NCBI GenBank assembly: GCA_036149055.1
Contig: JAYZQJ010000163.1
Span: 1-26,147 of the forward strand
From: Myxococcota bacterium
Lineage (GTDB): Bacteria; Myxococcota_A; Polyangia; Polyangiales; Sandaracinaceae
Length of the DNA stretch: 26,147 bases
Direction of reading: 5' to 3'
Part shown: positions 897 to 23,500 of the stretch, one piece after another
Layout: every line of letters begins with the position of its first letter
Position numbering within the stretch: the stretch's first letter is position 1
Notes under the pieces: generated by a model
The model's database searches: none
What the model was told of the DNA's origin: nothing
Seen by the model: only the letters and a program-made list of their open reading frames with translations
Translations under genes and position numbers: made by a program

Positions 897-1115
897 CTAG
901 GCGAACACGTCGGCGAGGCTTCCCGCGGTCAGGATGCGCTCGGCCCAGTGATCCAGCTTTAGCTCCGAACCCGCTCGGACCCGCGCCACGGTCTCGGGGC
1001 CTGGCTCTCCGAACTCGAGGCGCAGGAGCTTCAGGAGGATGTCGATGCGTCCTTGGGCGCGTCCTTCGGTGCGACCCTCCTCACGCTTCTTGATCGCCAG
1101 CATCTCCGAGTTCAA
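897..1115 (-). CDS. Intact DUF4351-like C-terminal mini-protein (72 aa), RpnS-like
   Basis: TTG at 1115-1113 lies 6 nt downstream of a GGAGG Shine-Dalgarno (1126-1122); uninterrupted frame to TAG at 897. Confidence 0.5.
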   Translation of the reverse strand: MNSEMLAIKKREEGRTEGRAQGRIDILLKLLRLEFGEPGPETVARVRAGSELKLDHWAERILTAGSLADVFA

Positions 1116-1494
1116 TGACTTCCTCCCGTACGCGAGGGCTCGTTACCGCAGAGCCTCGGCGACGAGGTCCTGTTCGGGGCGGCTGATGATCGAAAGATGG
1201 CTGAAGAGGCTGGCCAACGCCTGCCTTCCATCGCCGGCCGTCATCACCTCGTCGAGGAGACCCGAGAGGTCGGCTAGGGCGCCCGAGCGCGAGAGCGGCG
1301 AACGCCCGCATCCCCGAGCCCGGAGCGCGCGCGGGTGGAGCTGACCCAGGTCGTCCAGGAGGTAGCGGAGGCGCGGGACGAGCGGGCCCATGGCCGCGCT
1401 GAGCGTCGGGCTCGTCCCGAGCGCTACGCCGAGGTCGAGCGGGACAGGGCTGGTGAAGAGGGCGTCGGCGAGCGAGCCCGGGGCTGAGCGTCAT
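897..1494 (-). pseudogene. Rpn/YhgA-like (recombination-promoting nuclease / putative transposase) pseudogene with DUF4351-type C-terminus
   Basis: Segments in shifting frames: (T)LSPGSLADALFT, LVPRLRYLLDDL...LRAR, TAA at 1143-1145, VREEV, then NSEMLAIKKREEGRTEGRAQGRIDILLKLLRLEFG...LDHWAERILTAGSLADVFA. These match Rpn motifs, including the EGRxEG repeat and the WxERxLxAxSLxxVF tail. Frameshifts, an internal stop and large deletions are evident. Confidence 0.75.
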
Positions 1495-4377: not shown

Positions 4378-5019
4378 TCAGCCCGGAGCGGCGTGCATGA
4401 TGCCCTGGAGGTTGAAGTCCAGGAGCACCCGGGAGAGGTGGTCGAGGTCGACCTCGTCCTCCTCGAGGACGCGCTGCACGAGCTGCTTCACCGAGCCGAG
4501 GATGAGCCAGGCGACCGGCTCGGTGTCGAGGGGGCGGATGAAGCCGATGCGCTGGCCGTTGGCGAGCGACATGCTCAGCCAGTCGTGGAGCTGGGAGTAG
4601 AAGCCGTGCAGCTTCTCGTCGACCGCCTCGTCGATGCCGACCGCCTCGCGCAGGACGAACTTCGCCAGCGCGGGGTCCTCGCGGAAGCTGCCGAGCACGC
4701 TGCGCACGGTGGCGAGGATCTGGTCGCGGACCGGCGGCGCGCCCGGCTCGAGGTCGACGCCGATCATGTTCTCGTGGATGCGCTCGAGCAGCAGGTCGAG
4801 CAGCTCGTGGAAGATGGCGTTCTTCGAGTCGAAGTAGAGGTAGAAGGTGCCGCGCGCGATCGACGCCTCCTCGATGATGTCGGCCACGCGGGTCTGGTGG
4901 TAGCCCTTGGCGCTGAACACGCGCAGCGCCGCGTCGAGCACGGTGCGTCGACGCCGCTTGCGCTTCTGGGCCGCCCGCAGGCTCCGGCCGTCGAGCTCCT
5001 CGGTGGCGGTGGCGCTCAT
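4378..5019 (-). CDS. TetR/AcrR family transcriptional regulator, 213 aa
   Basis: HTH motif VLDAALRVFSAKGYHQTRVADIIEEASIARGTFYLYFDSK; ATG overlaps the upstream TGA (ATGA, 5019-5016). Confidence 0.95.
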   Translation of the reverse strand: MSATATEELDGRSLRAAQKRKRRRRTVLDAALRVFSAKGYHQTRVADIIEEASIARGTFYLYFDSKNAIFHELLDLLLERIHENMIGVDLEPGAPPVRDQILATVRSVLGSFREDPALAKFVLREAVGIDEAVDEKLHGFYSQLHDWLSMSLANGQRIGFIRPLDTEPVAWLILGSVKQLVQRVLEEDEVDLDHLSRVLLDFNLQGIMHAAPG

Positions 5020-5894
5020 CGGCGGCCCTCCCAGTAGTCGTTCACCCGCCGCGCCACGGAGGCCTGCACCCGGTCGGCGAGGGCGGGGATCTCGTCGTCG
5101 GTCAGGCCCGCCGACTCCACCGGCTCGTCGCACCAGACGGTGATCTCCTGGCCGGGGCGCAGCACGTAGCTGCCGGGGCGCATGAGGTCGAAGGTGCCGG
5201 TGACCGCGACCGGCACGATCGGGATCCCGAGGTCGCGCGCGATGTAGAAGATGCCCTTGCGGAAGGGCTTCACGTAGCCGGTGCGGGTGCGGCTGCCCTC
5301 GGGGAACGCGAGGATGGAGCGGCCCTCGGCGACCTCGCGGCCGATCTTCTCGCGGAGGTCCTCGGTCTGGTTCTTGGCGCCCTTCTTCACCGGGATGGTG
5401 CCGCGCTTCTTCATGAACCAGCCGTAGAACGGGTAGTCGAAGTGGCTCTCCAGCTCGAGGCCCTGCTTGAAGTGCGGGGTCGCGTTGTAGAGCATCACGT
5501 GGTCGAGGTGGTTCGTGTGGTTCTGCGCGAAGATGTAGGGCCGGTCGGGGTCGACCTTCGGGTGCACGACCGCGCGCCACTTGCAGCCGGTCAAGGCGAT
5601 CTGCCCCTTGCAGTAGACGCGGCCGAGGAGGTTCACCCGGTGGCTCGGCACCACGCTGTAGACCGCGGTCATCGCGCCGAGGCTCGGGACCAGCCAGCTG
5701 AGGCCGGCGCCCCAGAGCGCGGTGGAGACGAGCTTCTCGCGCAGGGTCGGCGCCTCGAAGGAGATCGAGGGCGCGCGCTCCTCGGGCGGCACCTCCTGGC
5801 GAGACGCGCGCCGGGTCGCGCGCGGCTGCGTCTCCGTGGGCCCGGTGTCGGCGGGCCGGTCGGTGTTCTGCTCGATCGAACGCTGCTGCATCAT
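5016..5894 (-). CDS. PlsC-family lysophospholipid acyltransferase, 292 aa
   Basis: HX4D motif NHTNHLD, FPEGSRT, PFRKGIF, PIVPV; N-terminal hydrophobic segment; ATGA overlap with the kinase stop. Confidence 0.93.
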   Translation of the reverse strand: MMQQRSIEQNTDRPADTGPTETQPRATRRASRQEVPPEERAPSISFEAPTLREKLVSTALWGAGLSWLVPSLGAMTAVYSVVPSHRVNLLGRVYCKGQIALTGCKWRAVVHPKVDPDRPYIFAQNHTNHLDHVMLYNATPHFKQGLELESHFDYPFYGWFMKKRGTIPVKKGAKNQTEDLREKIGREVAEGRSILAFPEGSRTRTGYVKPFRKGIFYIARDLGIPIVPVAVTGTFDLMRPGSYVLRPGQEITVWCDEPVESAGLTDDEIPALADRVQASVARRVNDYWEGRR

Positions 5895-6781
5895 GCGACC
5901 ACCTCCAGAGCGCCGGGCAGGATCTCCAGGCGCTCGAGCTTCAGCTTCATCACCTCGCCGTCGACCATCGCGTCCACGGCCTCGTCGAGCGACAGCTCGA
6001 CCGCTCGCGCGCGGCCCTGCTCCACCTCGGGACGCCGCACGTGCGTGCCCTGGAAGATGGACGGGAAGGCCCGCACGAAGGGAAGGCGCCCCATCTGCCC
6101 GATGCGGATGACGTCGAAGGCGCCATCGGTCGCGTCGGCCTCGGGGGCCATCATCATGGTGCCGCCGGTGTAGCGGCTGTTGGAGAACGAGAGGAGCACG
6201 CAGGGCCGCGCGTCCTCTTCGCCGCCGTCGACCCGGAGCGGGAACGACGGGTGCTTCAGCCGCGCCGCCGTGAGCAGCACCGCCGCCACGTACCCGGCCG
6301 CGCCCAGCGGCTTGAAGCGGCGGTTCGTCAGCCCGCCCGCCTCGGCGCTGAAGCCGACGCTGAGCAGGTTGATGAAGTGCAGCTCGCCGTCGGCGTGCAC
6401 CGCGCGCACCACGTCGCAGCGCCGGGTGACGCCCCGCTCGAGCGCCGCGAGCGCGTGCTCCGCCTTCGTGATCCCGAAGTCGCGGAGGAAGGAGTTGCCG
6501 GTGCCGAGCGGCAGCATGCCGAGCGTCGGCCGGTCCTCCTCGTCGTGCGGGAAGAGGCCGTTGACGATCTCGAAGCTGGTGCCGTCGCCGCCCACCGCGA
6601 GGAACTTCCGCTGACCCTTCGCCCACGCGTCGCGGGCGCGCTCGGTCGCCTCGCCGGCGCGCGAGGTGTGATGGACCTCGAGGTCCATCCCCGCGCGGCG
6701 CAGGCGCTCGAGCGCCGCCGGAGCGCGCTTGCCGCAGCGCCCGCCGCCGGCCGCCGGGTTGACGAGGGTCAGCCAGGTCAC
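5891..6781 (-). CDS. Diacylglycerol/sphingosine kinase family lipid kinase (DagK/YegS-like), 296 aa
   Basis: VNPAAGGG, VGGDGT, LPLGTGNSF, SNSRYTGG, VDGE; GTGA overlap with the upstream ligase stop. Confidence 0.93.
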   Translation of the reverse strand: MTWLTLVNPAAGGGRCGKRAPAALERLRRAGMDLEVHHTSRAGEATERARDAWAKGQRKFLAVGGDGTSFEIVNGLFPHDEEDRPTLGMLPLGTGNSFLRDFGITKAEHALAALERGVTRRCDVVRAVHADGELHFINLLSVGFSAEAGGLTNRRFKPLGAAGYVAAVLLTAARLKHPSFPLRVDGGEEDARPCVLLSFSNSRYTGGTMMMAPEADATDGAFDVIRIGQMGRLPFVRAFPSIFQGTHVRRPEVEQGRARAVELSLDEAVDAMVDGEVMKLKLERLEILPGALEVVA

Positions 6782-8505
6782 GAGAGGCGCTCCTCCTCGG
6801 GGGCCGCGGCCCGGAGCGACTCCGCCAGCAGCTGCCGCTTCACCTTCATGCTCGCGGTGCGCGGGAACGCCTCGTCGACGAAGACCAGGCCGCGGATCCG
6901 CTTGTGCTCGGGGAGGCGCCGGTTCTTCGCCGCGAGCTGGGCGCGGATCTCGCCGTCGCTCGCCGGCTCGGTGCCGTTGCCCTTCTTGCGCCGGACGACC
7001 GCCACCAGGCGCTCGTGACCCAGCCGCGCCTGCTCGGGCCAGAGGAAGCCGGAGGCGAAGACCGCGAGCTCCTCGACGGGCAGCGCCTCGAACGCGCCCT
7101 CGATGTCCTCCGGGTAGACGTTCTTGCCGCCCTCGGTGACGATCATGTTCTTGCTGCGCCCGACCAGGTGGAGGTGGTGCGCCGCGTCCATCCAGCCGAG
7201 GTCGCCGGTGCGGAGCCAGCCGTCCTCGGTGATCGCCTCGGCGGTCAGCTCCGGGTCGTCGAGGTAGCCGGTCATCAGGGTGCGGCCGCGGATCCAGACC
7301 TCGCCGACGCCGTCCGCGCCGGGCTCGTGGATGCGCACCTGCACGCCGGGCACCGGGCGGCCGACGCTGTCGCCGCGGAACGGCTTCAGGTCGTTGACGG
7401 TGGCCACGGTGCAGCACTCGGTGAGCCCGTAGCCGATCACCACCGGGAGGCCGAGGCGGTAGAACAGCTCGGCGCGATCGCGGTCGACGAAGGCGCCGCC
7501 GCAGAAGAGCACCTCGAGCTCGCCCCCGAACGCCTCGTGGATCGGCGAGAGCAGCGCGCGGCTGAGCTTCGGGGTGGGCTGCTTCGTGGTGAGCATCTCG
7601 TTCAGCCCGCCGATCACGCCGACCATGCGGCGCGCCCACGCGGGCTGCTGGAGCAGGCGCTCCTCGATGCTGCGCTCGAACGCCTCGAGCACCATCGGCA
7701 CCAGCGCCATGTGGGTGACGCCGTAGCTCTGCATCGTCGACTGCAGGAACTCGGGGCGGAGCGAGCGCTGGTGCACCACGGTGGCGCCGCAGCTGAAGGG
7801 GCCGACGAAGCCGACCATGAAGTCGATCGCGTGGTTGGTGGGCAGGATGGAGAAGGTCCGGTGCCCGACCCGCATCGGGAAGAGCGCCATCAGCGCCTTC
7901 AGCTGCTCGAGGTAGGCCTCGTGGCTGAGGACGCAGCCCTTGGGCCGGCCGCCGGTGCCCGAGGAGTAGACGATCGTCGCGGCGTCCTCGCGCGCGCGGG
8001 CCACCGGCGCCGGGGTCTCGCCGTCCGCGTCGAGCGCGTCCCAGTCGGTGTGAGCGAAGGCGTACTCCCCCTTGGCCTCGGTCACGAGCGCCGCCTCGAC
8101 GTCGAGCGCGCCGAAGCGCCGCGCGAGCCCGTGCTCGGTGATCAGCGCCTTCGGGCGGCAGTGCGCCATCAGCGCCTCCTGCTCGTCCGCCGAGAGCTTG
8201 TAGTCGAGGGGCACGAGCACCGCGCCGCGGGCGAAGACCGCGCAGGCCGCGAGGAGCCACCGGCTCTGGTTGCTCATCACGATCGCGACGCGGTCGCCCG
8301 CGCCGACGCCGCGCGCGGCGAGCCAGCGGGTCACCCGATCCGCCTCGCGCTTGGCGTCGAGGTAGGTGAGCCGGCGCGACTCCTTCTTGCGGTCGACCTC
8401 GATCAGCGCCGTCTCCGTCTTGAAGGTGACGAGCGCGTCCGCCAGCAGCTCGCCGAGCGAGCCGTAGCGGGTGGGGTCGATCATCTCGGGGTGGGGCGTC
8501 GCCAT
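6778..8505 (-). CDS. Long-chain acyl-CoA/acyl-ACP synthetase (AMP-binding, FadD-like), copy 1, 575 aa
   Basis: YSSGTGGRPKG, GYGLTE, WLRTGDLG, GRSKNMIVTEGGKNVYPEDIE, PRTASMKV. Confidence 0.95.
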   Translation of the reverse strand: MATPHPEMIDPTRYGSLGELLADALVTFKTETALIEVDRKKESRRLTYLDAKREADRVTRWLAARGVGAGDRVAIVMSNQSRWLLAACAVFARGAVLVPLDYKLSADEQEALMAHCRPKALITEHGLARRFGALDVEAALVTEAKGEYAFAHTDWDALDADGETPAPVARAREDAATIVYSSGTGGRPKGCVLSHEAYLEQLKALMALFPMRVGHRTFSILPTNHAIDFMVGFVGPFSCGATVVHQRSLRPEFLQSTMQSYGVTHMALVPMVLEAFERSIEERLLQQPAWARRMVGVIGGLNEMLTTKQPTPKLSRALLSPIHEAFGGELEVLFCGGAFVDRDRAELFYRLGLPVVIGYGLTECCTVATVNDLKPFRGDSVGRPVPGVQVRIHEPGADGVGEVWIRGRTLMTGYLDDPELTAEAITEDGWLRTGDLGWMDAAHHLHLVGRSKNMIVTEGGKNVYPEDIEGAFEALPVEELAVFASGFLWPEQARLGHERLVAVVRRKKGNGTEPASDGEIRAQLAAKNRRLPEHKRIRGLVFVDEAFPRTASMKVKRQLLAESLRAAAPEEERLS

Positions 8506-8508
8506 GGC

Positions 8509-8751
8509 TCAGATCCGGCTGGCGACCACGTCGGCGAGCTCGGCGAAGGTGCGCACGTCCTGCACCTCGTAGTCGGGGATCTCGACCCCGAACTTCTCCT
8601 CGAGCGCGGTCAGGAGGCTGAGCGCCTGCATCGAGTCGATGTCGAGCGCGTCGAACATGTCGGCGCTCGCGTCGAGCTCCGCGCGCTCCTTGCGGAAGCG
8701 CTCGGCGGCGAGGGTGAGGAGCTGATCGAGGACACGGCTCTCGTCGGACAT
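8509..8751 (-). CDS. Acyl carrier protein, 80 aa
   Basis: Small acidic protein with phosphopantetheine site LDIDSMQALSLLTALEEKFGVEIPD. Confidence 0.93.
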   Translation of the reverse strand: MSDESRVLDQLLTLAAERFRKERAELDASADMFDALDIDSMQALSLLTALEEKFGVEIPDYEVQDVRTFAELADVVASRI

Positions 8752-8759
8752 CGGGGACC

Positions 8760-9707
8760 TCAGTTCGGGGCCGCGGCCGCCTGGCGGCGCGGGAGGTAGG
8801 GCATCACGTCCTCCGAGGTCACGAAGGCGTCGAGCGCCTCCATCACCGCGGGGCTCGTGAGCAGGCGACAGAAGAGGGCCTTCTCCTCCGCGAGGCGCGC
8901 GGCGGGGAAGGGCTTGAGGAAGGGCTTGGCCGCGGCGACGGTGGCCGCGTCGAAGCGCTGGGTCTGGGCGGCGAGCTTGCGGGCCACGCCGAGCGCCTTG
9001 CCGTGGCCGACGAGCTGGGCGACGAGGCCGACCTCGTGGGCCCGGGCCGCGCCGAGGCTCCGTCCGCTGAGGAGCAGCTCGCGGACGAGCGCGTTTCCGA
9101 GGTCGCGCTCGAGGCGCGGCACCCCGCCGAAGCCGGGCACCAGGCCGAGCCGGAGCTCGGGGAAGGCGAAGCGCGCCGTCTTGTCGGCGACGATGACGTC
9201 GGCGGTGAGCGCCAGCTCGAAGCCGCCGCCGAAGCAGACGCCGTGCACCGCCGCGATGACCGGGACGGGCGCGGTGTCGAGGGTGTCGAAGACCGCGTGG
9301 ATGCGGTCGAGGAACGCGCGCACGCCCCAGACCTTGGCCGCCCGGAGCGGGTCGAGGCCGTAGTCGCCGCGGGTCAGGCCCCGCACGGTCGCGAGGCCGG
9401 CGCGCGCGGCTCGCCGCTTGCCGTCGAAGAGGCGCCGCGCGTGCTCGGGCAGGGCGCGCACGTCGCGGGCCGAGGCGAGCCCCTGGTGCAGCTCCCAGAG
9501 GTTGGCGCCGGCGCTGAAGCCCTTGGGGTTCTCGCTGTGGATCAGGACCGCGCGGTGGCCGCCCGCCCGGACGAGCGACGCCACCCGCTCGAGCTCGGTG
9601 AGCATGTCGAGCCCGATCTCGTTGAGCGGGTCGGCGTGCAGGGCCACCTCGAGCACCCCGTCGGTCACCTGCGTGCTCAGGCACGCGCCGGTCCAGGCGG
9701 CGGTCAC
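8760..9707 (-). CDS. Enoyl-CoA hydratase/isomerase (crotonase) family protein, 315 aa, with an internal insertion
   Basis: FSAGANL, PVIAAVHGVCFGGGFELAL and FAFPELRLGLVPGFGG (both catalytic Glu positions present); GTGA overlap at 9707-9704. Confidence 0.92.
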   Translation of the reverse strand: MTAAWTGACLSTQVTDGVLEVALHADPLNEIGLDMLTELERVASLVRAGGHRAVLIHSENPKGFSAGANLWELHQGLASARDVRALPEHARRLFDGKRRAARAGLATVRGLTRGDYGLDPLRAAKVWGVRAFLDRIHAVFDTLDTAPVPVIAAVHGVCFGGGFELALTADVIVADKTARFAFPELRLGLVPGFGGVPRLERDLGNALVRELLLSGRSLGAARAHEVGLVAQLVGHGKALGVARKLAAQTQRFDAATVAAAKPFLKPFPAARLAEEKALFCRLLTSPAVMEALDAFVTSEDVMPYLPRRQAAAAPN

Positions 9708-11329
9708 GCGTAGAGCCTCTCGATGGCGTCGGCGTAGTGCGCCTCGATCGCCTTGCGGCGGAGCTTCTGGTTGGCGGTCAGCAGCCCGTTCTCGACGCTG
9801 AACGGCTCGGGGCTGAGGTGGAACGAGCGGATGCGCCGGTAGTGCGGCAGCTCCTCGTTGATGCGATCGATCGCCTTGGCCGCCTCCTCGCGCGAGGCGT
9901 CGCCGGTGAGGATGGCGGTGAGGTAGGGGCGGCCGTGGCCGATGACGACCGCCTGGGTCACCCCGGTCACGCTCTCGAGGATGCGCTGCTCGATCGGCTC
10001 GGGCGCGACGTTGTGGCCGCTCTCCGGCACGAGGATGTTCTTCACCCGGCCGACGATCACCAGCCGGCCGTCGCGATCGATGCGGCCCTGGTCGCCGGTG
10101 CGGAACCAGCCGTCCTGGAACGCGTCCTCGGTGGCCTCGGGCTTGTTCCAGTAGCCGCTGAAGATGTTGGGCCCGCGGACCTGCAGCTCGCTGCCCTCGC
10201 CGAGGCGCATCTCGACGCCGTCGATGGCGTAGCCGACCTTGCCGGGCGCGGCGGCGCGCGGGCGGTCCATGGTCACGATCGCGGTGGTCTCGGTCAGCCC
10301 GTAGACCTGGTAGACCGGCAGGCCGAGCAGCTCGAACCACGCCTGGGTCTCCTCGGCCAGCGGCGCCGAGCCGCAGATCAGGCACTCGAGGCGCTCTCCG
10401 ATCTGCGCCTTGATCTTGGCGAAGACGGTGCGCCGCGCGGCGGCGAGCAGGAGCTTCTGCGGGAGCGTCGCGCGGCCGCGGCGGGCGTCGCGCCAGGCCT
10501 CGATGGACGCGTCGTAGAGCTTGCGGACCGGCAGCCCCTGGCTGGCGATCTTCTTCTCCACGCCGTCCTTCACGCGCTCGAGCAGGGCCGGCACGTTGAG
10601 GAACCACTCGGGCTGCGCGGTCTTCAGCTCCTCCGGGAGGTTGGTGAGGTCGGTCGAGACCATCACGCCGTTCTCCCGGTAGAGGTTGCTCCAGAGCACG
10701 AAGCGGCTGCCGGCGAAGCAGAAGGGCAGGTAGTGGAAGACGCGGTCGCGCCCGCCCGGCCGGCCCATGAGCTCGGTGAGCCGCCGGTCGATCGTGTCCA
10801 GCATGAACCGGACGTTGCCCGCGGTGGTCATCACGCCCTTGGGCTCGCCGCTGGTGCCCGACGTGTAGATGATCGTGACCGGGTCGTCGTCCGGCCGCGC
10901 CGCCGGCGGCTCGTGCACCGCCTCGCCCGCGAAGAGCGCCTCGAAGGTCATCACCGGCGCCTCGGCCCACGCCTTCGTCACGGCCTCGGCCAGCGCGTCG
11001 TCCGCGCAGACCACGAGGGTCGCGCCGGCGTCCTGCATCATCAGGACGAGCTCCTCCTCGGCCTGCCGCGCGTACATCGGCACGACGATCGCGCCCTCGG
11101 CGAGCATCGCGAGGTCGGCGGCGACCCACTTCGCCGAGTTGGGCGCGAGCAGCACCACCCGGTCGCCGGGGCTCACGCCGCGCTCGCGCAGCGCGCCGCG
11201 GGCCTGCGCGATCAGCTCGGCCAGCCGGCCGCCGTGGCTGCGCTCGAGCCGCTCGCCGTGCACCTCGGTGACGAAGGGGCGGCTCGGGTTCCGCTTCAGG
11301 TTCGCGAAGAACGTGTCGACGAAGCTCAT
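9704..11329 (-). CDS. AMP-dependent acyl-CoA/acyl-ACP synthetase, copy 2, 541 aa
   Basis: YTSGTSGEPKG, VYGLTE, WFRTGDQG, GRVKNILV, ENGLLTANQKLRR; ATG at 11329 with a GGGAGG Shine-Dalgarno upstream. Confidence 0.95.
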   Translation of the reverse strand: MSFVDTFFANLKRNPSRPFVTEVHGERLERSHGGRLAELIAQARGALRERGVSPGDRVVLLAPNSAKWVAADLAMLAEGAIVVPMYARQAEEELVLMMQDAGATLVVCADDALAEAVTKAWAEAPVMTFEALFAGEAVHEPPAARPDDDPVTIIYTSGTSGEPKGVMTTAGNVRFMLDTIDRRLTELMGRPGGRDRVFHYLPFCFAGSRFVLWSNLYRENGVMVSTDLTNLPEELKTAQPEWFLNVPALLERVKDGVEKKIASQGLPVRKLYDASIEAWRDARRGRATLPQKLLLAAARRTVFAKIKAQIGERLECLICGSAPLAEETQAWFELLGLPVYQVYGLTETTAIVTMDRPRAAAPGKVGYAIDGVEMRLGEGSELQVRGPNIFSGYWNKPEATEDAFQDGWFRTGDQGRIDRDGRLVIVGRVKNILVPESGHNVAPEPIEQRILESVTGVTQAVVIGHGRPYLTAILTGDASREEAAKAIDRINEELPHYRRIRSFHLSPEPFSVENGLLTANQKLRRKAIEAHYADAIERLYA

Positions 11330-11343
11330 CGTGGTCCTCCCGC

Positions 11344-12837
11344 TCAGGCGCGGTAGCGATCGACGACCGCGGACGCGGTGGGGCCCAGCGGGGGCAGGTG
11401 CGCCCAGGGGTCGCCGCCCTCGCCGAGGCCGTCGGCGAAGGGGAAGTCGGGGTGGAAGCCGCGGACGTGGTCGACGAGGATCGCGCCCATCCGGCCCATG
11501 CGCTCGAGGTTGGCGACGACGCAGCGGCCGATGCCGTCCTTCACCGCCTGGCGGTCCGCGTCGACCCGCTGCATCGCGGCGAGGAGCTTCCGGTCGAGCT
11601 CGGGATCGTCGACCTCGAGGGCGAGCTCCGGCTGGCCGCGGTCCGCCATCAGGTTCCGGATCCGCTCGTCCATCGTCACGCCCACGCTCGGCACGAGGCC
11701 GGGCATCGAGCAGACGAGCGCGTGGTAGCGCGACGACACCACCATCGCGCAGCGCCGCAGGATCGCGACCATCTCGTACATCTCGTGCTCGTCGCTCACG
11801 AAGAGCGGCAGCGGGGCGGGCAGCATCTCGTTCATGCGCTCCGCCGCCCGGCGGTCGAGCTGCTCCATGCCGACCAGGATCGGGAAGCAGTCGGTCTCCC
11901 GCCGGTAGTCCGAGAGCGCGCCGGCGAGGGCGCGGAGGTAGCCGTCGAACGCGCGGTCCACGTCCTGACCGTGCTTGTGGAAGTAGACGCTCTTGTAGTG
12001 CGCGTCGTCGTAGGCGCCGCTCAGCCCGTTCCAGGCCGCCTTGAGCGGCTCGGGCTTCACCGGCCACCAGAAGGGGTTGATCGGGCAGAGGGCCACCACC
12101 GGCTGCTCGCCGTCCCAACCGGCCCGCTTCAGGAGCCGCTCGGCGCGCTCGGCGGGGGCGGCCTCGAAGGTCCAGGCGGTGTCGGTGCCGAGCCGCGTGG
12201 GCACGCCGAGCCGGTCGAGCACGTCGGTCGACTCCTCGTTGCGCGTGATCACGAGCGCGTCCTGGCAGTGCTTCTCGACGAGGCGCTTCAGCGAGTCGTC
12301 CATCGCGCCCGCCTCGCCGCCGTAGCCGACCGCGACCTTCTCCTCCGCCGCCGCGAGCCCGATCGCGCCGACCATCATCGTCGAGAGCGCGTTCGCGAAC
12401 TTGCTCTTGAACATCGAGCCCTCGCACGCGATCACGCCGTGCTGCTCGCGGACCGTGTCGTAGAGGAACTTGTGGAAGATCTGGGGGATGTGGAGCTGGC
12501 GGACGGTGCGGAAGTAGCCCTTGGTCAGCGCCGGATCGATCGTGCAGATCGACAGCTCGAGGTGCTCGTCGCCGAAGAGGTGGCGGAACTGACGCACCAT
12601 CTCCTCGACCCGCACGTCGGCGCCCGTGTTGCGGGTGCCGACGTAGCCGGCGAGCAGCAGCTTGAGCGGCTCGCCCGGACGCCAGCGCGGCATCGGGTCG
12701 GCCTCGTGGCGGGTGCGGGCCGCCTCGATCAGCCCGCTCATGCCGAGCTGGACCATGCGGTCCGGGTCGAGGCTGTCCTTGGCGAGGTCGAGCGCGCCCT
12801 TGGCGGCGCGGCCGATCAGTCTCATCGCGAAGCTCAT
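11344..12837 (-). CDS. Polysaccharide pyruvyl transferase (CsaB/WcaK-like, GT-B fold) family protein, 497 aa
   Basis: LLLAGYVGTRNTGAD (cf. GYYGxxNxGD), ITRNEES (cf. vRDxxS), GTDTAW (cf. xDPA), VVSSRYHALV (cf. gMRLHa); ATGA overlap at 12837-12834. Confidence 0.75.
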   Translation of the reverse strand: MSFAMRLIGRAAKGALDLAKDSLDPDRMVQLGMSGLIEAARTRHEADPMPRWRPGEPLKLLLAGYVGTRNTGADVRVEEMVRQFRHLFGDEHLELSICTIDPALTKGYFRTVRQLHIPQIFHKFLYDTVREQHGVIACEGSMFKSKFANALSTMMVGAIGLAAAEEKVAVGYGGEAGAMDDSLKRLVEKHCQDALVITRNEESTDVLDRLGVPTRLGTDTAWTFEAAPAERAERLLKRAGWDGEQPVVALCPINPFWWPVKPEPLKAAWNGLSGAYDDAHYKSVYFHKHGQDVDRAFDGYLRALAGALSDYRRETDCFPILVGMEQLDRRAAERMNEMLPAPLPLFVSDEHEMYEMVAILRRCAMVVSSRYHALVCSMPGLVPSVGVTMDERIRNLMADRGQPELALEVDDPELDRKLLAAMQRVDADRQAVKDGIGRCVVANLERMGRMGAILVDHVRGFHPDFPFADGLGEGGDPWAHLPPLGPTASAVVDRYRA

Positions 12838-13982
12838 TCCGCGGCCTCCGGGAGCTTGGACGGCCGCGCGGGGAGCGGCGCGTAGGGGTACTCGAAGCCG
12901 ACCGACTTCGACCAGCGGTAGAGGTCGACGCCGTAGTCGGTGAAGCGCGCGGGCGCCTCGCCGAGCTCGGTGACCACCCGCGTGTTGTCGAAGACGACGT
13001 CGTTGGTGAAGTAGGGCAAGAAGACCTTGATCAGCGAGGCGTAGAGGCTCACCGGCCCGCGCGGACCGTTGGCGAGCCCGCCAGCGAGGGAGTCGAAGGC
13101 CCCGTAGAGCCTCGGCACGAGCTTGGGCGTGCGGATGCCGCCCTCGCGGAACGCCCGCTCGACCTCCCGCACCGTCGCCGCGCTCGTCCCCGCGCTGAGC
13201 TGGTAGCAGTCGTGGGCAACGTCGTCCTTGAGGTGCAGCTTCGCGATCGAGGGGCCGACGAAGCTGGCGGGCACGAAGTCGAGGCGCGTGTCGGGGTGGC
13301 AGGGCACCGCCGGCGCGTCGAGCATCCAGCAGAGGATGCGCACCATGTCGAACTGCGTCGTCTGCGGGAAGCGGTGATCGCCCATCACCGTCGGGGGCCG
13401 CAGGATGGTCTTCGGCACGTCGGGCAGCAGCTCGCGGAACATGTGCTCGGCGAACTTCTTGGTGCGGGCGTAGGGGTCGTAGTCGCTCAGCGACCAGTCG
13501 ATCGCCTCGTCCTCCTTCACCACCTGGTGCTCGCGCTTGCCGGCGACGGCGGTGGTGGAGACGAAGGAGAAGCGGCGCAGGCCGCCGCGCCGCTCGGCGA
13601 GCCAGCGGGTGAGCTGGGCGACGCTGAGCGAGCCGCGGAGGTTCGCGTTGAAGCAGGCCTTGGCGCTCTTGCGGTTCAGGCTGGCCGCGATGTGGAGCAC
13701 GCTGTCGCACTCCTCGGCCACCCGGGCGCGCGCGTCGTCCGACATGCCGAGCTGGGGCGACGAGAGATCGCCGGGCACGAAGACCACGCGGTCGAGGAAG
13801 GCGTAGAACTCCTCCGGCGCGAGGTGGAGCTGGAGCGCCTTCCAGAGCTTGGCCGTGCCCTCCTCGGCGTCCTTGGCGCGCGTCAGCAGGAAGAGGCGCC
13901 CCGCCTCGGGCCGCTGGCGCAGCTCGTCGAGCACGTAGGAGCCGAGGTAGCCGGTCCCGCCGGTGATGAAGATGCCGCTCAC
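12834..13982 (-). CDS. Extended SDR / NAD_binding_4 (thioester-reductase-like) oxidoreductase, 382 aa
   Basis: ITGGTGYLG, GDLSSPQLG, HIAASLN, FVSTTAV, catalytic YARTK, LRPPTVMG, DFVP; GTGA overlap at 13982-13979. Confidence 0.9.
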   Translation of the reverse strand: MSGIFITGGTGYLGSYVLDELRQRPEAGRLFLLTRAKDAEEGTAKLWKALQLHLAPEEFYAFLDRVVFVPGDLSSPQLGMSDDARARVAEECDSVLHIAASLNRKSAKACFNANLRGSLSVAQLTRWLAERRGGLRRFSFVSTTAVAGKREHQVVKEDEAIDWSLSDYDPYARTKKFAEHMFRELLPDVPKTILRPPTVMGDHRFPQTTQFDMVRILCWMLDAPAVPCHPDTRLDFVPASFVGPSIAKLHLKDDVAHDCYQLSAGTSAATVREVERAFREGGIRTPKLVPRLYGAFDSLAGGLANGPRGPVSLYASLIKVFLPYFTNDVVFDNTRVVTELGEAPARFTDYGVDLYRWSKSVGFEYPYAPLPARPSKLPEAAE

Positions 13983-15622
13983 TCCGCGCCTCCGAGCTCG
14001 GCCGAGGTGGTGGTGGGGGTCGGGGCCGGGAGCGCCGCCGCGACCGACGGCGGGTCGCCGCCGAGATCGAAGCCGACGTCGTCCGGCACCTCCTTGCCGC
14101 GGATGAGCGGCAACGACCAGGCGTCGAGCCCCGGGATCTCGACGTCCATCCAGTAGTGACGCCAGTCGAGCGTCTCGATGTCCCAGCCGAAGCGAGCGCG
14201 ATCCTCCTCGCTCAGCTCCGCGGTCCGGGCGCGCACGTGGTGCGTCTCGAACCGGTAGTCGAAGTCGTGGATGAAGGGCTGATAGACGTGCCACATCTGC
14301 TCGATGCTCTTGAGCAGCATCGAGGTCTTGTTGAGCTTGAGGCTCGCGTCGCGCGCCTTCTCCTGCCACTGCTCGCGGAGCCCCTCGTCGAGCGCCGCCG
14401 GCAGCTTCTTGGCGTCGACCTTGCGCAGCCGGTCGCGCAGCCAGCGGGTCGCCTTCTGCGCCGCCGGCACGAAGACGCTGCGGTCGGCGCCGTGCTCGAG
14501 CGTGGTCGAGTCCATGTGGGTCAGCAGCGCGCGCTCGAGCGGCGAGATCCCGCTCGGCACGTAGCCCTTGCGAACCTTCAGCGCCGTCAGATCGAGCGCG
14601 CGGTCGAAGGTGAAGCGGTTGGTGTCGCCGCTCGCGAGCTGCCAGACCTCCGGCGCCCGGCCCTCGAGCGCGTCGGCCAGCGCGAGCGTCATGCCGCGGG
14701 CCACCGTGTCCACCGGCACCACGTCGAAGCAGCTCTCGGCGCGCATCGGCACCTTCCAGGCGAAGCCGCTGCACATCCAGACGATGGGGCCGCTGGTGTT
14801 GATGCCCTCGTTCCACCCGGGGAAGGGGTAGCTCCGGGCGCACTCGACGATGCTCGGCCGGACGAGGGTCAGGTCGAGGTCGTCCCGCTGGGTGAGCGCG
14901 TGCTCGGCGAGGCCCTTCGAGTAGGTGTAGAGGTTGGGCCAGCCGAGGGACTTCGCGCGGCGGGTGCCGACCTCGATGCGGCCGCGCCGGGCGGCGGGGC
15001 GCTTGCGGCCGCCCTCGCGCTCGTCGATCGCGTCGCAGGCGCTGTCGATCGCGAGCAGCTCGGCGTCGACGTCGAAGCGGGTGCCGTTGGGCGAGACGCC
15101 GGGGGTGACCCGCTCGGGGATCGCGCCGTCGATCTCGCCGGCGACGAAGCAGGTGCTGACGTGCACCAGCCGCTTGCTGGGGATGCGCGCCGCGACGTCG
15201 GCCGCGTGCCGGGCGCCCCGCACGTTCACCTCTACCGCCATGCGCGGGTCGGGCGCGAAGTCGGTGAGGCCGGCGCAGTGGACCACCGCGTCGAGGCGCG
15301 GGGCGAGCTGGGCGAGCACGTGGGGCGGGATGCCCATCAGCGGCTCGGCGGCGTCGCCCTCGATGACCTCGATCTTGCTCTGCACGAGCTTCAGGAGCTC
15401 GTCGCCGTGCTTCTCGCGCAGGGGCCGCAGCGCGGGCGAGCTCTCGAAGATCCGCCGCACCCGGGCGGCCGCGCTCTCGGTCCGGCGCCCGCGCACCAGC
15501 AGGGTCAGCTTGCCGACCTCGGGCAGGTGGTCGAGCAGGAAGCCGACCCACACCTTGCCGAGGAAGCCGGTGAACCCGGTCACCAGCACGTGGCGACCCT
15601 TCAGCGTGTCGGAGATGGGCAA
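13979..15622 (-). CDS. Alcohol-forming fatty acyl-CoA/ACP reductase (FAR, male-sterility type), ~547 aa
   Basis: VTGFTGFLGKV, HCAGLTDF, HVSTCFVAG, GWPNLYTYSKGLAE, RPSIVE...PFPGWNEG, DVVPVDTV, C-terminal F.WDIETLDWRHY. Start taken as TTG at 15622 behind AAGGGAG, 2 nt after the HAD stop. Confidence 0.9.
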   Translation of the reverse strand: MPISDTLKGRHVLVTGFTGFLGKVWVGFLLDHLPEVGKLTLLVRGRRTESAAARVRRIFESSPALRPLREKHGDELLKLVQSKIEVIEGDAAEPLMGIPPHVLAQLAPRLDAVVHCAGLTDFAPDPRMAVEVNVRGARHAADVAARIPSKRLVHVSTCFVAGEIDGAIPERVTPGVSPNGTRFDVDAELLAIDSACDAIDEREGGRKRPAARRGRIEVGTRRAKSLGWPNLYTYSKGLAEHALTQRDDLDLTLVRPSIVECARSYPFPGWNEGINTSGPIVWMCSGFAWKVPMRAESCFDVVPVDTVARGMTLALADALEGRAPEVWQLASGDTNRFTFDRALDLTALKVRKGYVPSGISPLERALLTHMDSTTLEHGADRSVFVPAAQKATRWLRDRLRKVDAKKLPAALDEGLREQWQEKARDASLKLNKTSMLLKSIEQMWHVYQPFIHDFDYRFETHHVRARTAELSEEDRARFGWDIETLDWRHYWMDVEIPGLDAWSLPLIRGKEVPDDVGFDLGGDPPSVAAALPAPTPTTTSAELGGAE

Positions 15623-15624
15623 CT

Positions 15625-16305
15625 TCAGTGACTCCCTTCGACGACCGGCCAGTCCAGGTCGCGCGCCATGCGGCGCAGCTCTCGATCGGGGGTGACGGCG
15701 CAGGGCAGGGCGACGGCGCCGAGCAGCACCGAGTCCTCCTTGCCGCTGCCGTACGCGCAGGCGCCCCGCAGGTCGACGCCGAGCTCGGCGAGGCGGCCCA
15801 TCAGCGGGCGGCCGCCGAGGGCCGGGCCGAGGACCGGCGGGCGCAGCTCCCCGGTGGCCCGCGCGTGACCGTCGAGCTCCATCGCGTTGGCGATGACGTC
15901 GTCGAAGCCGAGGTGGGCGGCGATCGGCCTCGCGATCACGTCGAGGTTGTCGCTCAGCAGCACCAGGCGCTGGCCCTGATCGCGGCACCGCTCGACCAGC
16001 TCGACCCCGACCGGGTTCAGCGCCGGGCGGAGGTGCTCGTCGGCGTAGATCTCCCCGAGCACCACCAGGCGGTCCTCGGTCATGCCCTCGAGCATCGACC
16101 AGGCGAGCTTGGTCGCCCGACCCGGATCGCGGAGCGCCAGCGGGCCGGCGAGGGCCAGGCTGGAGAGCCCGAGCACGCGGGCGCGGACCCGGCGCGCGTT
16201 CATGGCCATCCAGGCGGCCGCGGTGAGGGTCGGCCTCGGGCTCAGCGGCCCCTCCAGCCGGAACAGCGCGGCTGGGCGCGCGCTTCTGGTGATCGCGTCG
16301 GTCAT
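15625..16305 (-). CDS. HAD-IB (SerB-like) superfamily protein with degenerate catalytic motifs, 226 aa
   Basis: Fold signatures LVLLSDNLDVIARPIAAHLGFDDVIAN, ATGEL, AYGSGKEDSVLLGAV and AVTPDRELRRMARDLDWPV; motif I reads FRLEGPL rather than FDxDGTL. Confidence 0.85.
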   Translation of the reverse strand: MTDAITRSARPAALFRLEGPLSPRPTLTAAAWMAMNARRVRARVLGLSSLALAGPLALRDPGRATKLAWSMLEGMTEDRLVVLGEIYADEHLRPALNPVGVELVERCRDQGQRLVLLSDNLDVIARPIAAHLGFDDVIANAMELDGHARATGELRPPVLGPALGGRPLMGRLAELGVDLRGACAYGSGKEDSVLLGAVALPCAVTPDRELRRMARDLDWPVVEGSH

Positions 16306-16626: not shown

Positions 16627-16923
16627 ATGTCCAACAAGCTTTTCGTCGGCAGCCTGAGCTGGAACACGGACGACCACGGCCTCGCGGCCGCGTTCGAGCG
16701 TTTCGGTGAGATCACGGACGCCAAGGTCATCACGGACCGCGACTCCGGTCGCAGCCGTGGCTTCGGCTTCGTCACCTTTGCCGACCCGAGCGCCGCCCAG
16801 AACGCGGTGCGCGAGATGAACGGCGTCGAGATCGACGGCCGCTCGGTCAACGTCGACATCGCGCAGGAGCGCGGTGGCGGCGGCGGTGGTCGCCGCGGTG
16901 GCGGCGGCGGCGGTCGCTGGTAG
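16627..16923 (+). CDS. RRM (RNP-1) RNA-binding protein with Gly/Arg-rich tail, 98 aa
   Basis: RNP2 KLFVGSL, RNP1 RGFGFVTF, tail RGGGGGGRRGGGGGGRW. Confidence 0.97.
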   Translation: MSNKLFVGSLSWNTDDHGLAAAFERFGEITDAKVITDRDSGRSRGFGFVTFADPSAAQNAVREMNGVEIDGRSVNVDIAQERGGGGGGRRGGGGGGRW

Positions 16924-16950: not shown

Positions 16951-16988
16951 AGAGCCGGCGTCCCTCGGGGCGCCGGCTCTCTTCGTTT
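16951..16988. terminator. Intrinsic terminator hairpin, probably bidirectional
   Basis: AGAGCCGGCG-TCCCTCGGGG-CGCCGGCTCT followed by CTTCGTTT and preceded by A-rich ACAGAACAGA; sits between convergent genes. Confidence 0.8.
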
Positions 16989-17466: not shown

Positions 17467-20451
<2,985 letters not shown>

Positions 20452-20584
20452 GTGTCGAGCTTCCTCCAGGCTCCTTCTACGACGACCGCGCCCCAGCCTT
20501 CCTGCGTTTCAGGCGACCGCGAGCCAGCCGCGTTTCACGGCGTCGGAGAGGCTGGAAGCCAACAGTCACGGCGAAAAAAGGGCG

Positions 20585-20590
20585 TATACT
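20585..20590 (+). promoter_or_regulatory. Putative -10 box TATACT, 8 nt upstream of the ATG at 20599
   Basis: Near-consensus -10 preceded by an A-tract; no Shine-Dalgarno; no clear -35. Confidence 0.45.
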
Positions 20591-20598
20591 CTACATGC

Positions 20599-23500
20599 AT
20601 GGCGGCCGACGGCGAGTCAGCGCACGAGCCGATCTCGTACAGCCAGCTGGAGGCGGTGCCGTCGGCGGACGGGGTCTCGCACGCGAGCCTCGAGGCCGCC
20701 ATACGGCTGCTCGAGGCGGAGCTGTCGGGGGCCCGCGGCGACGAGGACCGCGCCCAGCTCTCGCTCGAGCTCGGCCTGCTCCACCTCGAGGCCGGTGACC
20801 TCGAGCGCGCGGGCGAGCGCCTCGGCGCGGCCGGCGGGAGCGCGGCGGCGGTCCGGCTCCGGACCGAGCTCGCGATCCGGCGCGCGGATCCGGGGGCGCT
20901 CGCCGAGGCGGTGGCCGCCGAGCTCGCGCTCGCCGAGGGCAACGCCGCGCGCGCGTCGCTCCGGGTGGCGCAGGGCCGGCTCGAGGCCACCGACGAGGGC
21001 GCGCTCGCGGCGTTCACCGAGGCGGCGGCGCTCGAGTCCGGGGTGGAGGCGTGCCTGGCCGCCGAGCGGGCGTTCGTGCGGGCCGGTCGCGACGGGGAGG
21101 CGGGCGACGTGGCCCGGGTCGCGGCGGAGCGCCTGCAGTCCCCCGAGGCCAAGGCCGAGTGGCTCGCGCGCGCCGCCCGCTACGCCTCGCGGGCCGGTCA
21201 GCCCCAGGACGCCGCCGCCGCGCTGCGCCGGGCCACCGAGCTGGCGCCCGAGGCCGCGTCGGTGCGGCTGGGCTGGGAGCTGCTCGCGGCCCGCAGCCGG
21301 GATCCGGCGCGCTGGATCGAGCTGCGCTCGCTCGCCCTCGATCGCGGCGCCGACCCCGCCGACGCGATCGACGCCGGCATCCTCGCCCGCTACCGCCTGC
21401 GCGACGGCGCGATGGCGCGCGCCTTCTTCGACCACGCGTTCGAGCGGGCGGAGGGAGACGCCAAGCGCTTCCTCGCCGGCGAGCTGGTGACGATGGTGGA
21501 TCCGATCGAGGAGCTGCCACGCTGGCTCGAGCTGACCGAGGCGCGGCGCGCCCTCACCGAGGACCCGGAGGCCCGAGCCCAGCTCGAGCACGAGCTCGCG
21601 CGCGGCTTCGCCGATCTCGCCGACGACCCGGAGCGGGCCCGGGAGCACGCGCTCGCCTGCCTCGCGCTGGCCCCTGCGCACGCCCCCGCGCTCGAGCTCC
21701 TCGCGCGCCTCGACCGAGGCGTGGGGCCGGAGCTGGCCGCTGCGTGGCGCCGCGCCGCCGAGGCCACCGAGGACCCGGCGCTCCGGGCCGACGCGCTCGC
21801 CCGGGTGGCGGACGCCGATCGGGAGTCCGCGCCGCTCGCCTGGGTGGAGGCGGAGGCGGCCGCGCCCGGAGACCTCGGCGCCCTCGCCGGCCTCGAGCGC
21901 GCGTTCGCCGACCCCGCCGCGCCCGAGCGCGTGCAGGCCCTCGAGCGGGCCGCGCCCTCGTTCCAGCACCCGGTCTCGCGCCTGCGCAGCGCGCTCTCTC
22001 GCGCCGACGCCCGGGTCGCCGCCGGCGATCCGGAGGGCGCCCGCGCGATCCTCGAGGAGGCGGCCGCCACCGACGCCCAGGTCTCGCTCGCCCTCGAGGC
22101 GAAGCGGCGCCTCGAGCCGCTGCTGGCCCCGACCGAGCGCCTCGCGATCCTGCGCGAGCTGCTCGCCGCCGATCCCTGGGACGCGCTCCATCGCTGGACC
22201 ACGCTCGCCCGCGAGCTGCTCGAGTCGGGCGATCCCGACGAGCTCGCGCCGGCGCTCGCCGAGGTGCTGCCCGAGGCGCCGCTCCGTCACCCCTTCCGGC
22301 TCGTGATGCGGCGCCTGCTCGCCGAGCAGGAGCGGCCCGAGGAGCTGCGCGATCTGCACGACGCCTCGGCCGCGCTCGCCGACGGACCGGCCCGCGCCGC
22401 CTGGCTCGAGCGCGCGGCCGACGTGACCCTGCACGAGCTCGATCAGCCGGTCGCTGCCCTCGAGCGGCTGGAGGCGGCGCGCGCGCTCCTCCCTTCGGCG
22501 TCGCGGCTGGTGACGCTCTCGCGCGACATCCTCGCGCGCCGGGAGGATCACCCGGGGCTGTCGCGGCTGCCCTTCGCGGAGGACGACGCGGTGGCGTGCC
22601 TCCAGCGCGCGGCGCTGCACGAGGCGGCCGGCGATCTCGAGGCCGCCACCCGCGCCTACCTGCGGGCCGAGGCGCTGGGCCTGGAGGCGGCCGGGCGGCC
22701 CGCCGAGCGGCTGCTCGCCGAGGCCGCGGACTGGGCGTCGCTGGTCTCGCGCGCCGAGGGCGCGGCGGCGCCGGAGGCGCGGCACCGGGCGGCGGTCCTC
22801 GCGGCCGAGGAGCTCCGGGATCCGGACGCGGCCCGCGCGATCCTCGAGGGCGGCGACGGCCTCGCGCTCCTCGCCCTGCGCCACCGGGTCGACGGTGATC
22901 TCGGGGCGGTGCTCGGGCTCGCCGAGGGGTGTGACGACCCGGTGCTGGCGCGGGCCCTGCGGCGCGAGGCGGCGTGGCTGCGCACCGCGGCCGATCCCGA
23001 CGACGCGGCCGCCTGGCTCCCGATCGCCGAGGCCGATCCCTCCGACGTGCTCGCGGCCGCGCACACCACCGTGTCGCTCGCGCGCGCCGACCGGCTGAAG
23101 TCCCTCCTCGAGTTCTGGGAGGCGTCGCCGCCCCCGATCGAGCGCAGCTCGCTCGCGACCCTCGCCGCGGTGCGCATGGCGGCCGCCTACGAGGCGCTCG
23201 GCTCCCTGCGCGCGGCCGCCGACGCCGCCGCGCTCGCGGTGGAGCGGCCGGAGGCGCCGTGGCTCGCTCACCTGCAAGCCCCGCGGCTCCATCGGCTCCT
23301 CGACGATCCGGAGGGGCGCGCCCGGAGCCTGGCCGCGCTCGCCCGGCGGCTGTCCCGCGGCCCGGCCAGCGCGCGGGTCTGGCTGACGCTCGCGATCGAG
23401 CAGCGCGAGGCCGGCGACCGCGCCTCCGCGCTCGAGACCCTGGTGCGCGCGCACCGCGCGGCGCCGACCTACTACCCGGCGCTCCACGCGATCGCGGCCG

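What the first reader, a model, noticed from the sequence alone, without database searches (positions are those of the whole stretch)
11344..12837. Pyruvyl-transferase-like enzyme with no polysaccharide genes: possible PEP-dependent ether-bond formation on a fatty alcohol
Seen: a CsaB/WcaK-like protein sits between two reductases and a ligase, with no glycosyltransferase, flippase or sugar-nucleotide gene in the window. Its N-terminal motif is altered (GYVGTRNTGAD rather than GYYGxxNxGD) and it has a ~55-aa N-terminal extension. Established: this family transfers the C3 unit of PEP to hydroxyl groups. Inference, as a scheme that gives each enzyme a role: a ligase and FAR make a fatty alcohol; this enzyme forms an enolpyruvyl ether or ketal; the second ligase loads that acid on ACP; the crotonase hydrates the 2-alkoxy-acrylyl thioester to 2-O-alkylglyceryl-ACP; the NAD_binding_4 reductase releases 2-O-alkylglycerol; the kinase phosphorylates it and PlsC acylates it. 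That would build the glycerol backbone from PEP and place the ether at C2. The scheme is speculative.
Basis: inference. Interest (0 to 1): 0.85.

Follow-up and report, generated by a model that had tools for sequence, protein, structure and literature searches.

The report
PEP-transferase replacing elb ether-lipid genes
An enzyme of the family that normally adds pyruvate to sugars sits in a conserved lipid operon that almost never occurs together with the known myxobacterial ether-lipid (elb) genes, so it likely joins a three-carbon unit from phosphoenolpyruvate to a fatty alcohol in an undescribed, untested route to ether lipids.

Summary
Window 12837-11344 (-) encodes a 497-aa PF04230 protein with a predicted GT-B fold and all modelled PEP-site residues (R199, R370, H372, R392). 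The canonical acceptor Asp is Ala/Ser in 86 of 88 homologues. No glycan genes lie nearby. The gene belongs to an operon (HAD-FAR-reductase-PVT-ligase-crotonase-ACP-ligase-kinase-PlsC) kept across Myxococcota and Acidobacteriota, and the operon is a split counterpart of elbB/D/E. Of 83 sampled genomes with this reductase type, 82 carry either PVT (21) or ElbC (62 of its 63 genomes), and only one carries both. ElbC is a lactate-racemase-fold protein. The operon's HAD has lost its catalytic Asp, whereas ElbB keeps it. Best reading (0.42): PVT makes an enolpyruvyl ether of a fatty alcohol, which is hydrated, reduced, phosphorylated and acylated, giving a PEP-derived backbone with the ether at C2. 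The main rival is a pyruvate ketal on a lipid 1,3-diol, as proposed for ChtnH. No chemistry is shown, and this genome also has AGPS-like and PlsA-like genes. The scan found this operon before on other DNA; I found no paper describing it.

The parts
15625..16305 (-). HAD-IB fold protein, counterpart of ElbB; motif I reads FRLEG, the nucleophilic Asp replaced by Arg (predicted pseudo-phosphatase)
   Evidence: Pfam HAD. RxE in 74, KxE in 1, RxD in 1 of 76 readable HADs at 85 PVT loci (9 unread; 3 loci are repeats); DxD in 15 of 16 readable HADs at the 17 other loci, the exception being a split piece of a PVT operon.
13979..15622 (-). Stand-alone fatty acyl reductase (FAR), counterpart of the ElbD reductase domain; start codon uncertain (TTG 15622)
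   Evidence: NAD_binding_4 + Sterile; 33-36% identity to the N-terminal domain of fused ElbD-type proteins; Y232/K236 conserved.
12834..13982 (-). Second NAD_binding_4 reductase, thioester-reductase type
   Evidence: best PDB sequence match MxaA, E 1.6e-24; Y171/K175 conserved.
11344..12837 (-). PVT: 497-aa PS_pyruv_trans-family protein, GT-B fold, PEP site kept, acceptor site remodelled, two-helix N-terminal extension (the finding)
9704..11329 (-). Ligase 1: FadD-like long-chain acyl-CoA synthetase, dispensable
   Evidence: AMP-binding + AMP-binding_C_3; groups with other genome ligases, SH-aLRT 99; no orthologue found in 5 of 5 genomes whose operon lacks it; a PVT-ligase fusion exists, P0170.
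8760..9707 (-). Crotonase / enoyl-thioester hydratase with both catalytic glutamates (E164, E184)
   Evidence: ECH_1; both Glu at 93% or more of 61 rows.
8509..8751 (-). Stand-alone acyl carrier protein, S40 conserved
6778..8505 (-). Ligase 2: counterpart of the ElbD adenylation domain
   Evidence: Best match of the ElbD A domain in this genome; sister to ElbD A domains, SH-aLRT 94, quick tree.
5891..6781 (-). YegS/DAGK-family lipid kinase, GGDGT intact
5016..5894 (-). PlsC-family acyltransferase, NHxxxxD intact; counterpart of the ElbD acyltransferase domain
4378..5019 (-). TetR/FadR-like regulator, overlap-coupled to PlsC
   Evidence: present at 18 of 65 loci with enough downstream DNA.

Best explanation
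The gene encodes a GT-B-fold protein with an intact pyruvyl-transferase PEP site and a remodelled acceptor site, in a conserved operon that occurs in place of elbC/elbD; it likely transfers the C3 unit of PEP onto a fatty alcohol to form an enolpyruvyl ether, which would be the ether-forming step of a glycerol-ether phospholipid pathway. Inferred route: ligase 2, the ACP and FAR make the fatty alcohol, as the matching ElbD domains are thought to. PVT gives RO-C(=CH2)-COOH plus phosphate. Ligase 1 or another FadD (or ligase 2) makes the thioester. The crotonase adds water at C3, and the second reductase releases 2-O-alkylglycerol. The kinase phosphorylates it and PlsC acylates the free hydroxyl. 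Because PVT itself would release the phosphate, no phosphatase is needed, which fits the dead HAD; because the backbone would arise without phosphate, a kinase is needed. Shown: genes, order, motifs, fold model, distribution. Inferred: every reaction and the product.
For: PEP-site residues named for CsaB/Pvg1p (R148/R217, R306/R337, H308/H339, K328/K361; PMC10435577) map by alignment to R199 (88 of 88), R370 (87), H372 (88) and R392 (87); CsaB K328R stays active. The acceptor side differs from 20 outgroup PF04230 proteins: A73 (D in 16 of 20), R76 (I in 14), E139 (G in 17), and an aromatic PFWWP insertion where many outgroups have the loop-1 Arg. Gene order is conserved: upstream FAR 73, HAD 72, reductase 72 of 79 loci; downstream crotonase 57, ligase 2 51, ligase 1 50, ACP 49, kinase 47, PlsC 37 of 65 (six own or repeated loci dropped). 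In 201 genomes of the phylum, PVT is in 21, ElbC in 63 and both in 1 (6.6 expected; P 0.003, overstated because kin are not independent); 82 of 83 FAR-positive genomes have one or the other. In 41 close relatives PVT is in 34 and ElbC in 3, all among the 7 without PVT (includes unpublished G023). In family f42, 13 of 14 have PVT and the 14th has elbCD. A paper reports the elb cluster absent from Sandaracinus amylolyticus and Nannocystis (PMC12224551), which carry PVT. Acidobacterial loci add FabH inside the operon (11 of 98 loci), a convergent CDP-alcohol phosphatidyltransferase (13 of 98) and a Tes-like radical SAM gene upstream (4 of 98; three scanned, 315-323 bits, below the 450 cut-off).
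Confidence: 0.42

Rival explanations
1. PVT is still a ketal transferase but acts on a lipid 1,3-diol. The crotonase would make 3-hydroxyacyl-ACP, a reductase would release the alkane-1,3-diol, and PVT would cap it as a cyclic pyruvate ketal. The kinase and PlsC would work on the uncapped diol (a glycerol-free diol phospholipid).
For: It is the family's normal chemistry: a primary plus secondary 1,3-diol mimics sugar O6/O4. ChtnH is proposed to ketalise two hydroxyls of a lipid chain (PMC13291983, passages). PVT, FAR and the crotonase are kept more often than kinase and PlsC, and the G214 second copy has only HAD-FAR-PVT-crotonase-ACP-ligase-desaturase.
Against: The Asp that contacts the O6 hydroxyl in Pvg1p is lost. 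A ketal leaves no hydroxyl for kinase and PlsC and gives no need for a second reductase, which is present at 72 of 79 loci. It does not explain the near-exclusive swap with an ether-lipid operon.
Confidence: 0.22
2. The operon makes the same 1-O-alkyl (or 1,2-di-O-alkyl) glycerolipid as elb. The C-O bond at the primary carbon would be made by the crotonase adding a fatty alcohol to C3 of an acrylyl-type thioester, with PVT only supplying or capping the C3 unit.
For: Mutual exclusion with elb implies an equivalent product, and the elb product is 1-O-alkyl. The crotonase is PVT's most constant downstream partner (57 of 65). A dialkylglycerol would suit a DAG-family kinase, and would fit both the weaker retention of PlsC and the Tes-like neighbours.
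Against: Alcohol addition by a crotonase has no precedent that I found; the enzyme has the ordinary two-Glu hydratase site; no product data.
Confidence: 0.18
3. The operon only supplies fatty alcohol and lyso-lipid processing. The ether bond would be made elsewhere (AGPS or PlsA/Ger), and PVT would pyruvylate a sugar or inositol head group, or a glycan made at another locus.
For: G000 has two AGPS-like genes (E 9e-101 and 1.5e-66 to Dictyostelium AGPS) and a BcrAD+DUF2229 gene. PIP-synthase-like genes flank 13 loci. CsaB and WcfO need lipid-linked sugars. NxGA[DE] also occurs in glycan-type loci.
Against: A near full-length AGPS match was found in only 11 of 36 PVT-positive genomes, and none at E 1e-30 in 14 of 36, including all 8 acidobacterial ones. 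No glycan gene recurs at the loci. It leaves the crotonase, second reductase and ACP unexplained.
Confidence: 0.1
4. PVT has kept an anion pocket but uses another donor (for example a phosphorylated C3 acid other than PEP), or is a non-catalytic partner like the HAD.
For: The catalytic Asp position is lost; the best fold matches are other GT-B enzymes; the operon already keeps one predicted pseudo-enzyme.
Against: All four modelled PEP ligands plus D219 and D328 are near-invariant over 88 homologues down to 24% identity, and new invariant polar residues appear (R76, E139, D390).
Confidence: 0.08

Closest known systems
Ketal-pyruvyl transferases of Pfam PF04230 (P. alvei CsaB, E. coli WcaK, S. 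pombe Pvg1p, PDB 5AX7)
   Different: Far below the CsaB and WcaK cut-offs; acceptor Asp replaced by Ala/Ser; new R76 and E139; aromatic loop insertion; 57-aa helical extension; lipid operon without glycan genes.
Myxococcus xanthus elbABCDE ether-lipid operon (ElbB HAD, ElbC, ElbD FAR-ligase-ACP-acyltransferase, ElbE), as reviewed in PMC9131029
   Same: HAD, FAR, adenylation domain, ACP, acyltransferase and an NAD-binding reductase are all present; FAR 33-36%, ligase 2 33-34% identical to ElbD-type domains; ligase 2 is sister to the ElbD A domain.
   Different: Domains unfused; no ElbC (Lar_N) in the genome; adds PVT, crotonase, kinase and a second ligase; the second reductase is thioester-reductase type rather than epimerase type; HAD lacks its nucleophile; the two systems nearly exclude each other. 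I compared with elb-type loci of unnamed Myxococcota, not with M. xanthus itself.
ChtnH of chitinimine biosynthesis (PMC13291983, passages read)
   Same: A pyruvyl-transferase-family protein proposed to act on hydroxyls of a lipid chain rather than a sugar.
   Different: It lies in a PKS-NRPS-PUFA cluster and gives a cyclic acetal on a diol; the assignment is itself predicted; I did not compare sequences.
MurA enolpyruvyl transferase
   Same: The inferred reaction type: C3 unit of PEP to one hydroxyl with phosphate release (PMC6801904, passage).
   Different: Different fold (recalled); PVT is GT-B, and no enol transfer is known for PF04230.

Membership tests
PF04230 pyruvyl-transferase superfamily | Pfam score above gathering cut-off | tested here: met
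   33.2 bits against 25.3
PF04230 pyruvyl-transferase superfamily | GT-B fold | tested here: met
PF04230 pyruvyl-transferase superfamily | PEP-binding Arg, Arg, His, Lys | tested here: met
   R199, R370, H372, R392 (Lys in 18 of 20 outgroups), by sequence alignment to outgroup members, not to CsaB or Pvg1p themselves
CsaB / WcaK ketal transferases | NCBIfam equivalog cut-off | tested here: not met
   73 against 213.1; 30.2 against 399
CsaB / WcaK ketal transferases | Acceptor-site Asp of N-x-G-D (Pvg1p D106) | tested here: not met
   Ala/Ser in 86 of 88; mapping rests on N103-D106 spacing and the outgroup alignment; D74 one residue on might substitute
CsaB / WcaK ketal transferases | Location in a glycan-synthesis cluster | tested here: not met
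   No recurrent glycan gene at 98 loci
CsaB / WcaK ketal transferases | Ketal formation on a sugar diol | not testable with these tools
   Needs an assay
elb ether-lipid operon | FAR, adenylation, ACP and acyltransferase homologues | tested here: met
   Present as separate genes
elb ether-lipid operon | Fused multidomain ElbD | tested here: not met
   Best ElbD matches in G000 are the separate window genes
elb ether-lipid operon | ElbC (Lar_N protein) | tested here: not met
   Not found in G000 (96% complete) or in 24 same-family genomes; the same query rang in 63 others
elb ether-lipid operon | ElbB HAD with DxD motif | tested here: not met
   RxE here and in 74 of 76 readable PVT-locus HADs
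elb ether-lipid operon | Makes alkyl ether lipids | not testable with these tools
   No lipid data found for carriers

The most novel reading that the evidence does not exclude
A further bacterial route to ether lipids that needs neither glycerol-3-phosphate nor DHAP: a GT-B enzyme forms the ether bond by enolpyruvyl transfer to a fatty alcohol, and the glycerol backbone is then built from PEP, giving sn-2 ether (or, if the crotonase adds a second alcohol, diether) phospholipids that could feed Tes-like enzymes in soil Acidobacteria. By analogy, the lactate-racemase-fold ElbC that it replaces would be the missing C3-handling, ether-forming step of the elb pathway.
Probability: 0.3. Interest if true: 0.92.

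Novelty: new variant of a known kind. Interest (0 to 1): 0.7.

Why it matters
How ElbD-type systems make the ether bond is an open question: a 2022 review states the steps from fatty acid to alkyl ether are unknown (PMC9131029). Here two unrelated proteins, PVT and ElbC, alternate almost perfectly beside the same reductase-ligase-ACP-acyltransferase core. That points to the slot where the unknown chemistry lies and makes it testable with one soluble enzyme, PEP and a fatty alcohol in an existing phosphate-release assay. Cultured carriers exist (Nannocystis exedens DSM 71, Paraliomyxa miuraensis; the protein is also in Sandaracinus amylolyticus). If true, it adds a new reaction to the pyruvyl-transferase family and a candidate source of acidobacterial ether lipids used as climate proxies.

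Full report
Observation. The frame at 12837-11344 (-) gives 497 aa and starts in an ATGA overlap with the upstream gene. It matches Pfam PS_pyruv_trans above cut-off, 33.2 against 25.3 bits, and CsaB and WcaK models far below theirs. It lies in a run of eleven same-strand genes with gaps of 14 bases or less: HAD, FAR, second reductase, PVT, ligase 1, crotonase, ACP, ligase 2, lipid kinase, PlsC, TetR. None of the 25 window ORFs scanned hit a glycan-synthesis family. Close homologues carry Sandaracinaceae labels.

The operon. Where enough DNA was held, FAR, HAD and reductase were upstream at 73, 72 and 72 of 79 loci; crotonase, ligase 2, ligase 1, ACP, kinase and PlsC downstream at 57, 51, 50, 49, 47 and 37 of 65 (six own or repeated loci dropped). 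A few loci are split or show PVT alone (for example L005, L020, L123). Catalytic motifs (labels recalled) are intact in the crotonase (E164, E184), both reductases (YxxxK), kinase, PlsC and ACP. The second reductase is nearest to the MxaA terminal reductase. Ligase 1 groups with general FadD-like ligases and had no orthologue in 5 of 5 genomes whose operon lacks it; ligase 2 is sister to ElbD adenylation domains (quick tree, 37 rows). One protein fuses PVT to a ligase-1-like domain.

Relation to elb. Fused ElbD-type proteins match FAR, ligase 2, ACP and PlsC. Their loci read HAD, a ~530-aa gene, ElbD, epimerase-type reductase, matching the elbB-E order in PMC9131029 (passages); the ~530-aa ElbC is Lar_N in 4 of 4 scanned. 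In one sample of 201 genomes, PVT is in 21, ElbC in 63, both in 1 (G105), and 82 of the 83 with a FAR match have one or the other. In 41 close relatives the three ElbC genomes are all among the seven without PVT (the tally includes unpublished G023). In 151 Acidobacteriota there is no overlap, but little is expected (includes unpublished G288). Kin are not independent, so the P values overstate. PMC12224551 (passages and tables) lists the elb cluster as absent from S. amylolyticus and Nannocystis; N. exedens and P. miuraensis have the PVT operon and no ElbC match. The HAD differs in step with this: RxE at PVT loci (74 of 76 readable) and DxD at elb loci (15 of 16 readable, the exception a split PVT-operon piece).

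Mechanism. The shared core is annotated to make a fatty alcohol and acylate a lyso-lipid. What the PVT operon adds is a PEP-site enzyme, a hydratase, a thioester reductase and a kinase, and what it lacks is ElbC and an active phosphatase. I rate it 0.42, with the ligase roles possibly swapped: PVT, ligase 1 and crotonase lie in reaction order. It predicts a C2 ether, unlike the 1-O-alkyl elb product, and needs enol transfer, which is not known in this family (PMC6801904, passages). A ketal on a lipid 1,3-diol has a proposed precedent in ChtnH (PMC13291983, passages) and gets 0.22. A crotonase-made primary ether or diether gets 0.18. An ether made elsewhere gets 0.10: G000 has two AGPS-like genes and a PlsA/Ger-like gene (label recalled from its domains), but a near full-length AGPS match was seen in only 11 of 36 PVT genomes. 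Accessory neighbours point to a phospholipid: FabH at 11, a CDP-alcohol phosphatidyltransferase at 13 and a Tes-like gene at 4 of 98 loci. I had a lead for the Tes link from an earlier AI note and checked it here.

Novelty. Ten literature searches found no description of this operon. A 2026 preprint on sponge elb-like clusters (10.64898/2026.06.23.733905; passages and one section read) mentions split elbD variants and DAG kinases but has no occurrence of 'pyruvyl'. PMC10087280, PMC13012113, PMC8313283, PMC9304148, PMC4644332 and PMC9864124 were read as passages only; no supplements were read. The scan itself has reported this operon several times on other DNA. Verdict: a real, widespread, uncharacterised variant of the elb system whose distinctive enzyme is a new PF04230 subfamily; the chemistry is inferred and directly testable.

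Noticed in passing
window 15625-16305: The HAD gene is a conserved predicted pseudo-phosphatase (RxE for DxD) that always precedes FAR; its role, perhaps as a binding partner, is unexplained.
   Followed up: partly
L107:10153-11763, L117:5394-6980 and other elb loci: ElbC, called unknown in PMC9131029, is a Lar_N (lactate racemase N-terminal) protein, 52-79% identical across the phylum; a search for elbC with lactate racemase found no paper joining the two.
   Followed up: partly
L120 (G214:C21) 7611-14450: Second, reduced copy of the operon: HAD-FAR-PVT-crotonase-ACP-ligase followed by a fatty acid desaturase, without second reductase, kinase or PlsC.
   Followed up: partly
L081-L088 (genus g20): Eight genomes keep only the second reductase, in seven next to a PlsC-like gene, at a different locus, with no FAR, PVT or ElbC match.
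   Followed up: partly
L031, L042, L056, L072, upstream of HAD: Tes-like radical SAM gene on the same strand; 315-323 bits against a 450 cut-off in the three scanned; about 170 bases from the HAD match in L042.
   Followed up: partly
P0170, P0130: Fusion proteins: PVT with a ligase-1-like domain (967 aa), and a FAR C-terminal piece with PVT (640 aa; may be a gene-calling artefact).
   Followed up: partly
L026, L030, L051, L063, L066, L078: Isopropylmalate dehydrogenase-family gene (6 loci) and synthase-family gene (3 loci) directly upstream of the operon in acidobacterial loci, a possible link to iso-branched primers.
   Followed up: no
G000:C133 (L181), C219, C246: Two AGPS-like genes, one near an ERG4/ERG24 sterol reductase, and a BcrAD+DUF2229 gene in the same genome.
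   Followed up: partly
L173, L174: Another PF04230 subfamily with N-R-G-A-E, beside an FrhB-like gene and a GT2 gene.
   Followed up: no
window 16627-16923: Gly-rich RRM RNA-binding protein, divergent from the operon, far deeper than its neighbours in all four RNA runs, followed by a strong hairpin at 16951-16980.
   Followed up: no
window 17467-20451 and 20452-25386: 994-aa secreted Cys-rich repeat protein (MopE-like repeats, lamin tail domain) and a 1644-aa TPR-like helical protein; unrelated to the operon.
   Followed up: no
window 897-1391: Two short ORFs (one DUF4351) that look like remnants of a longer gene.
   Followed up: no
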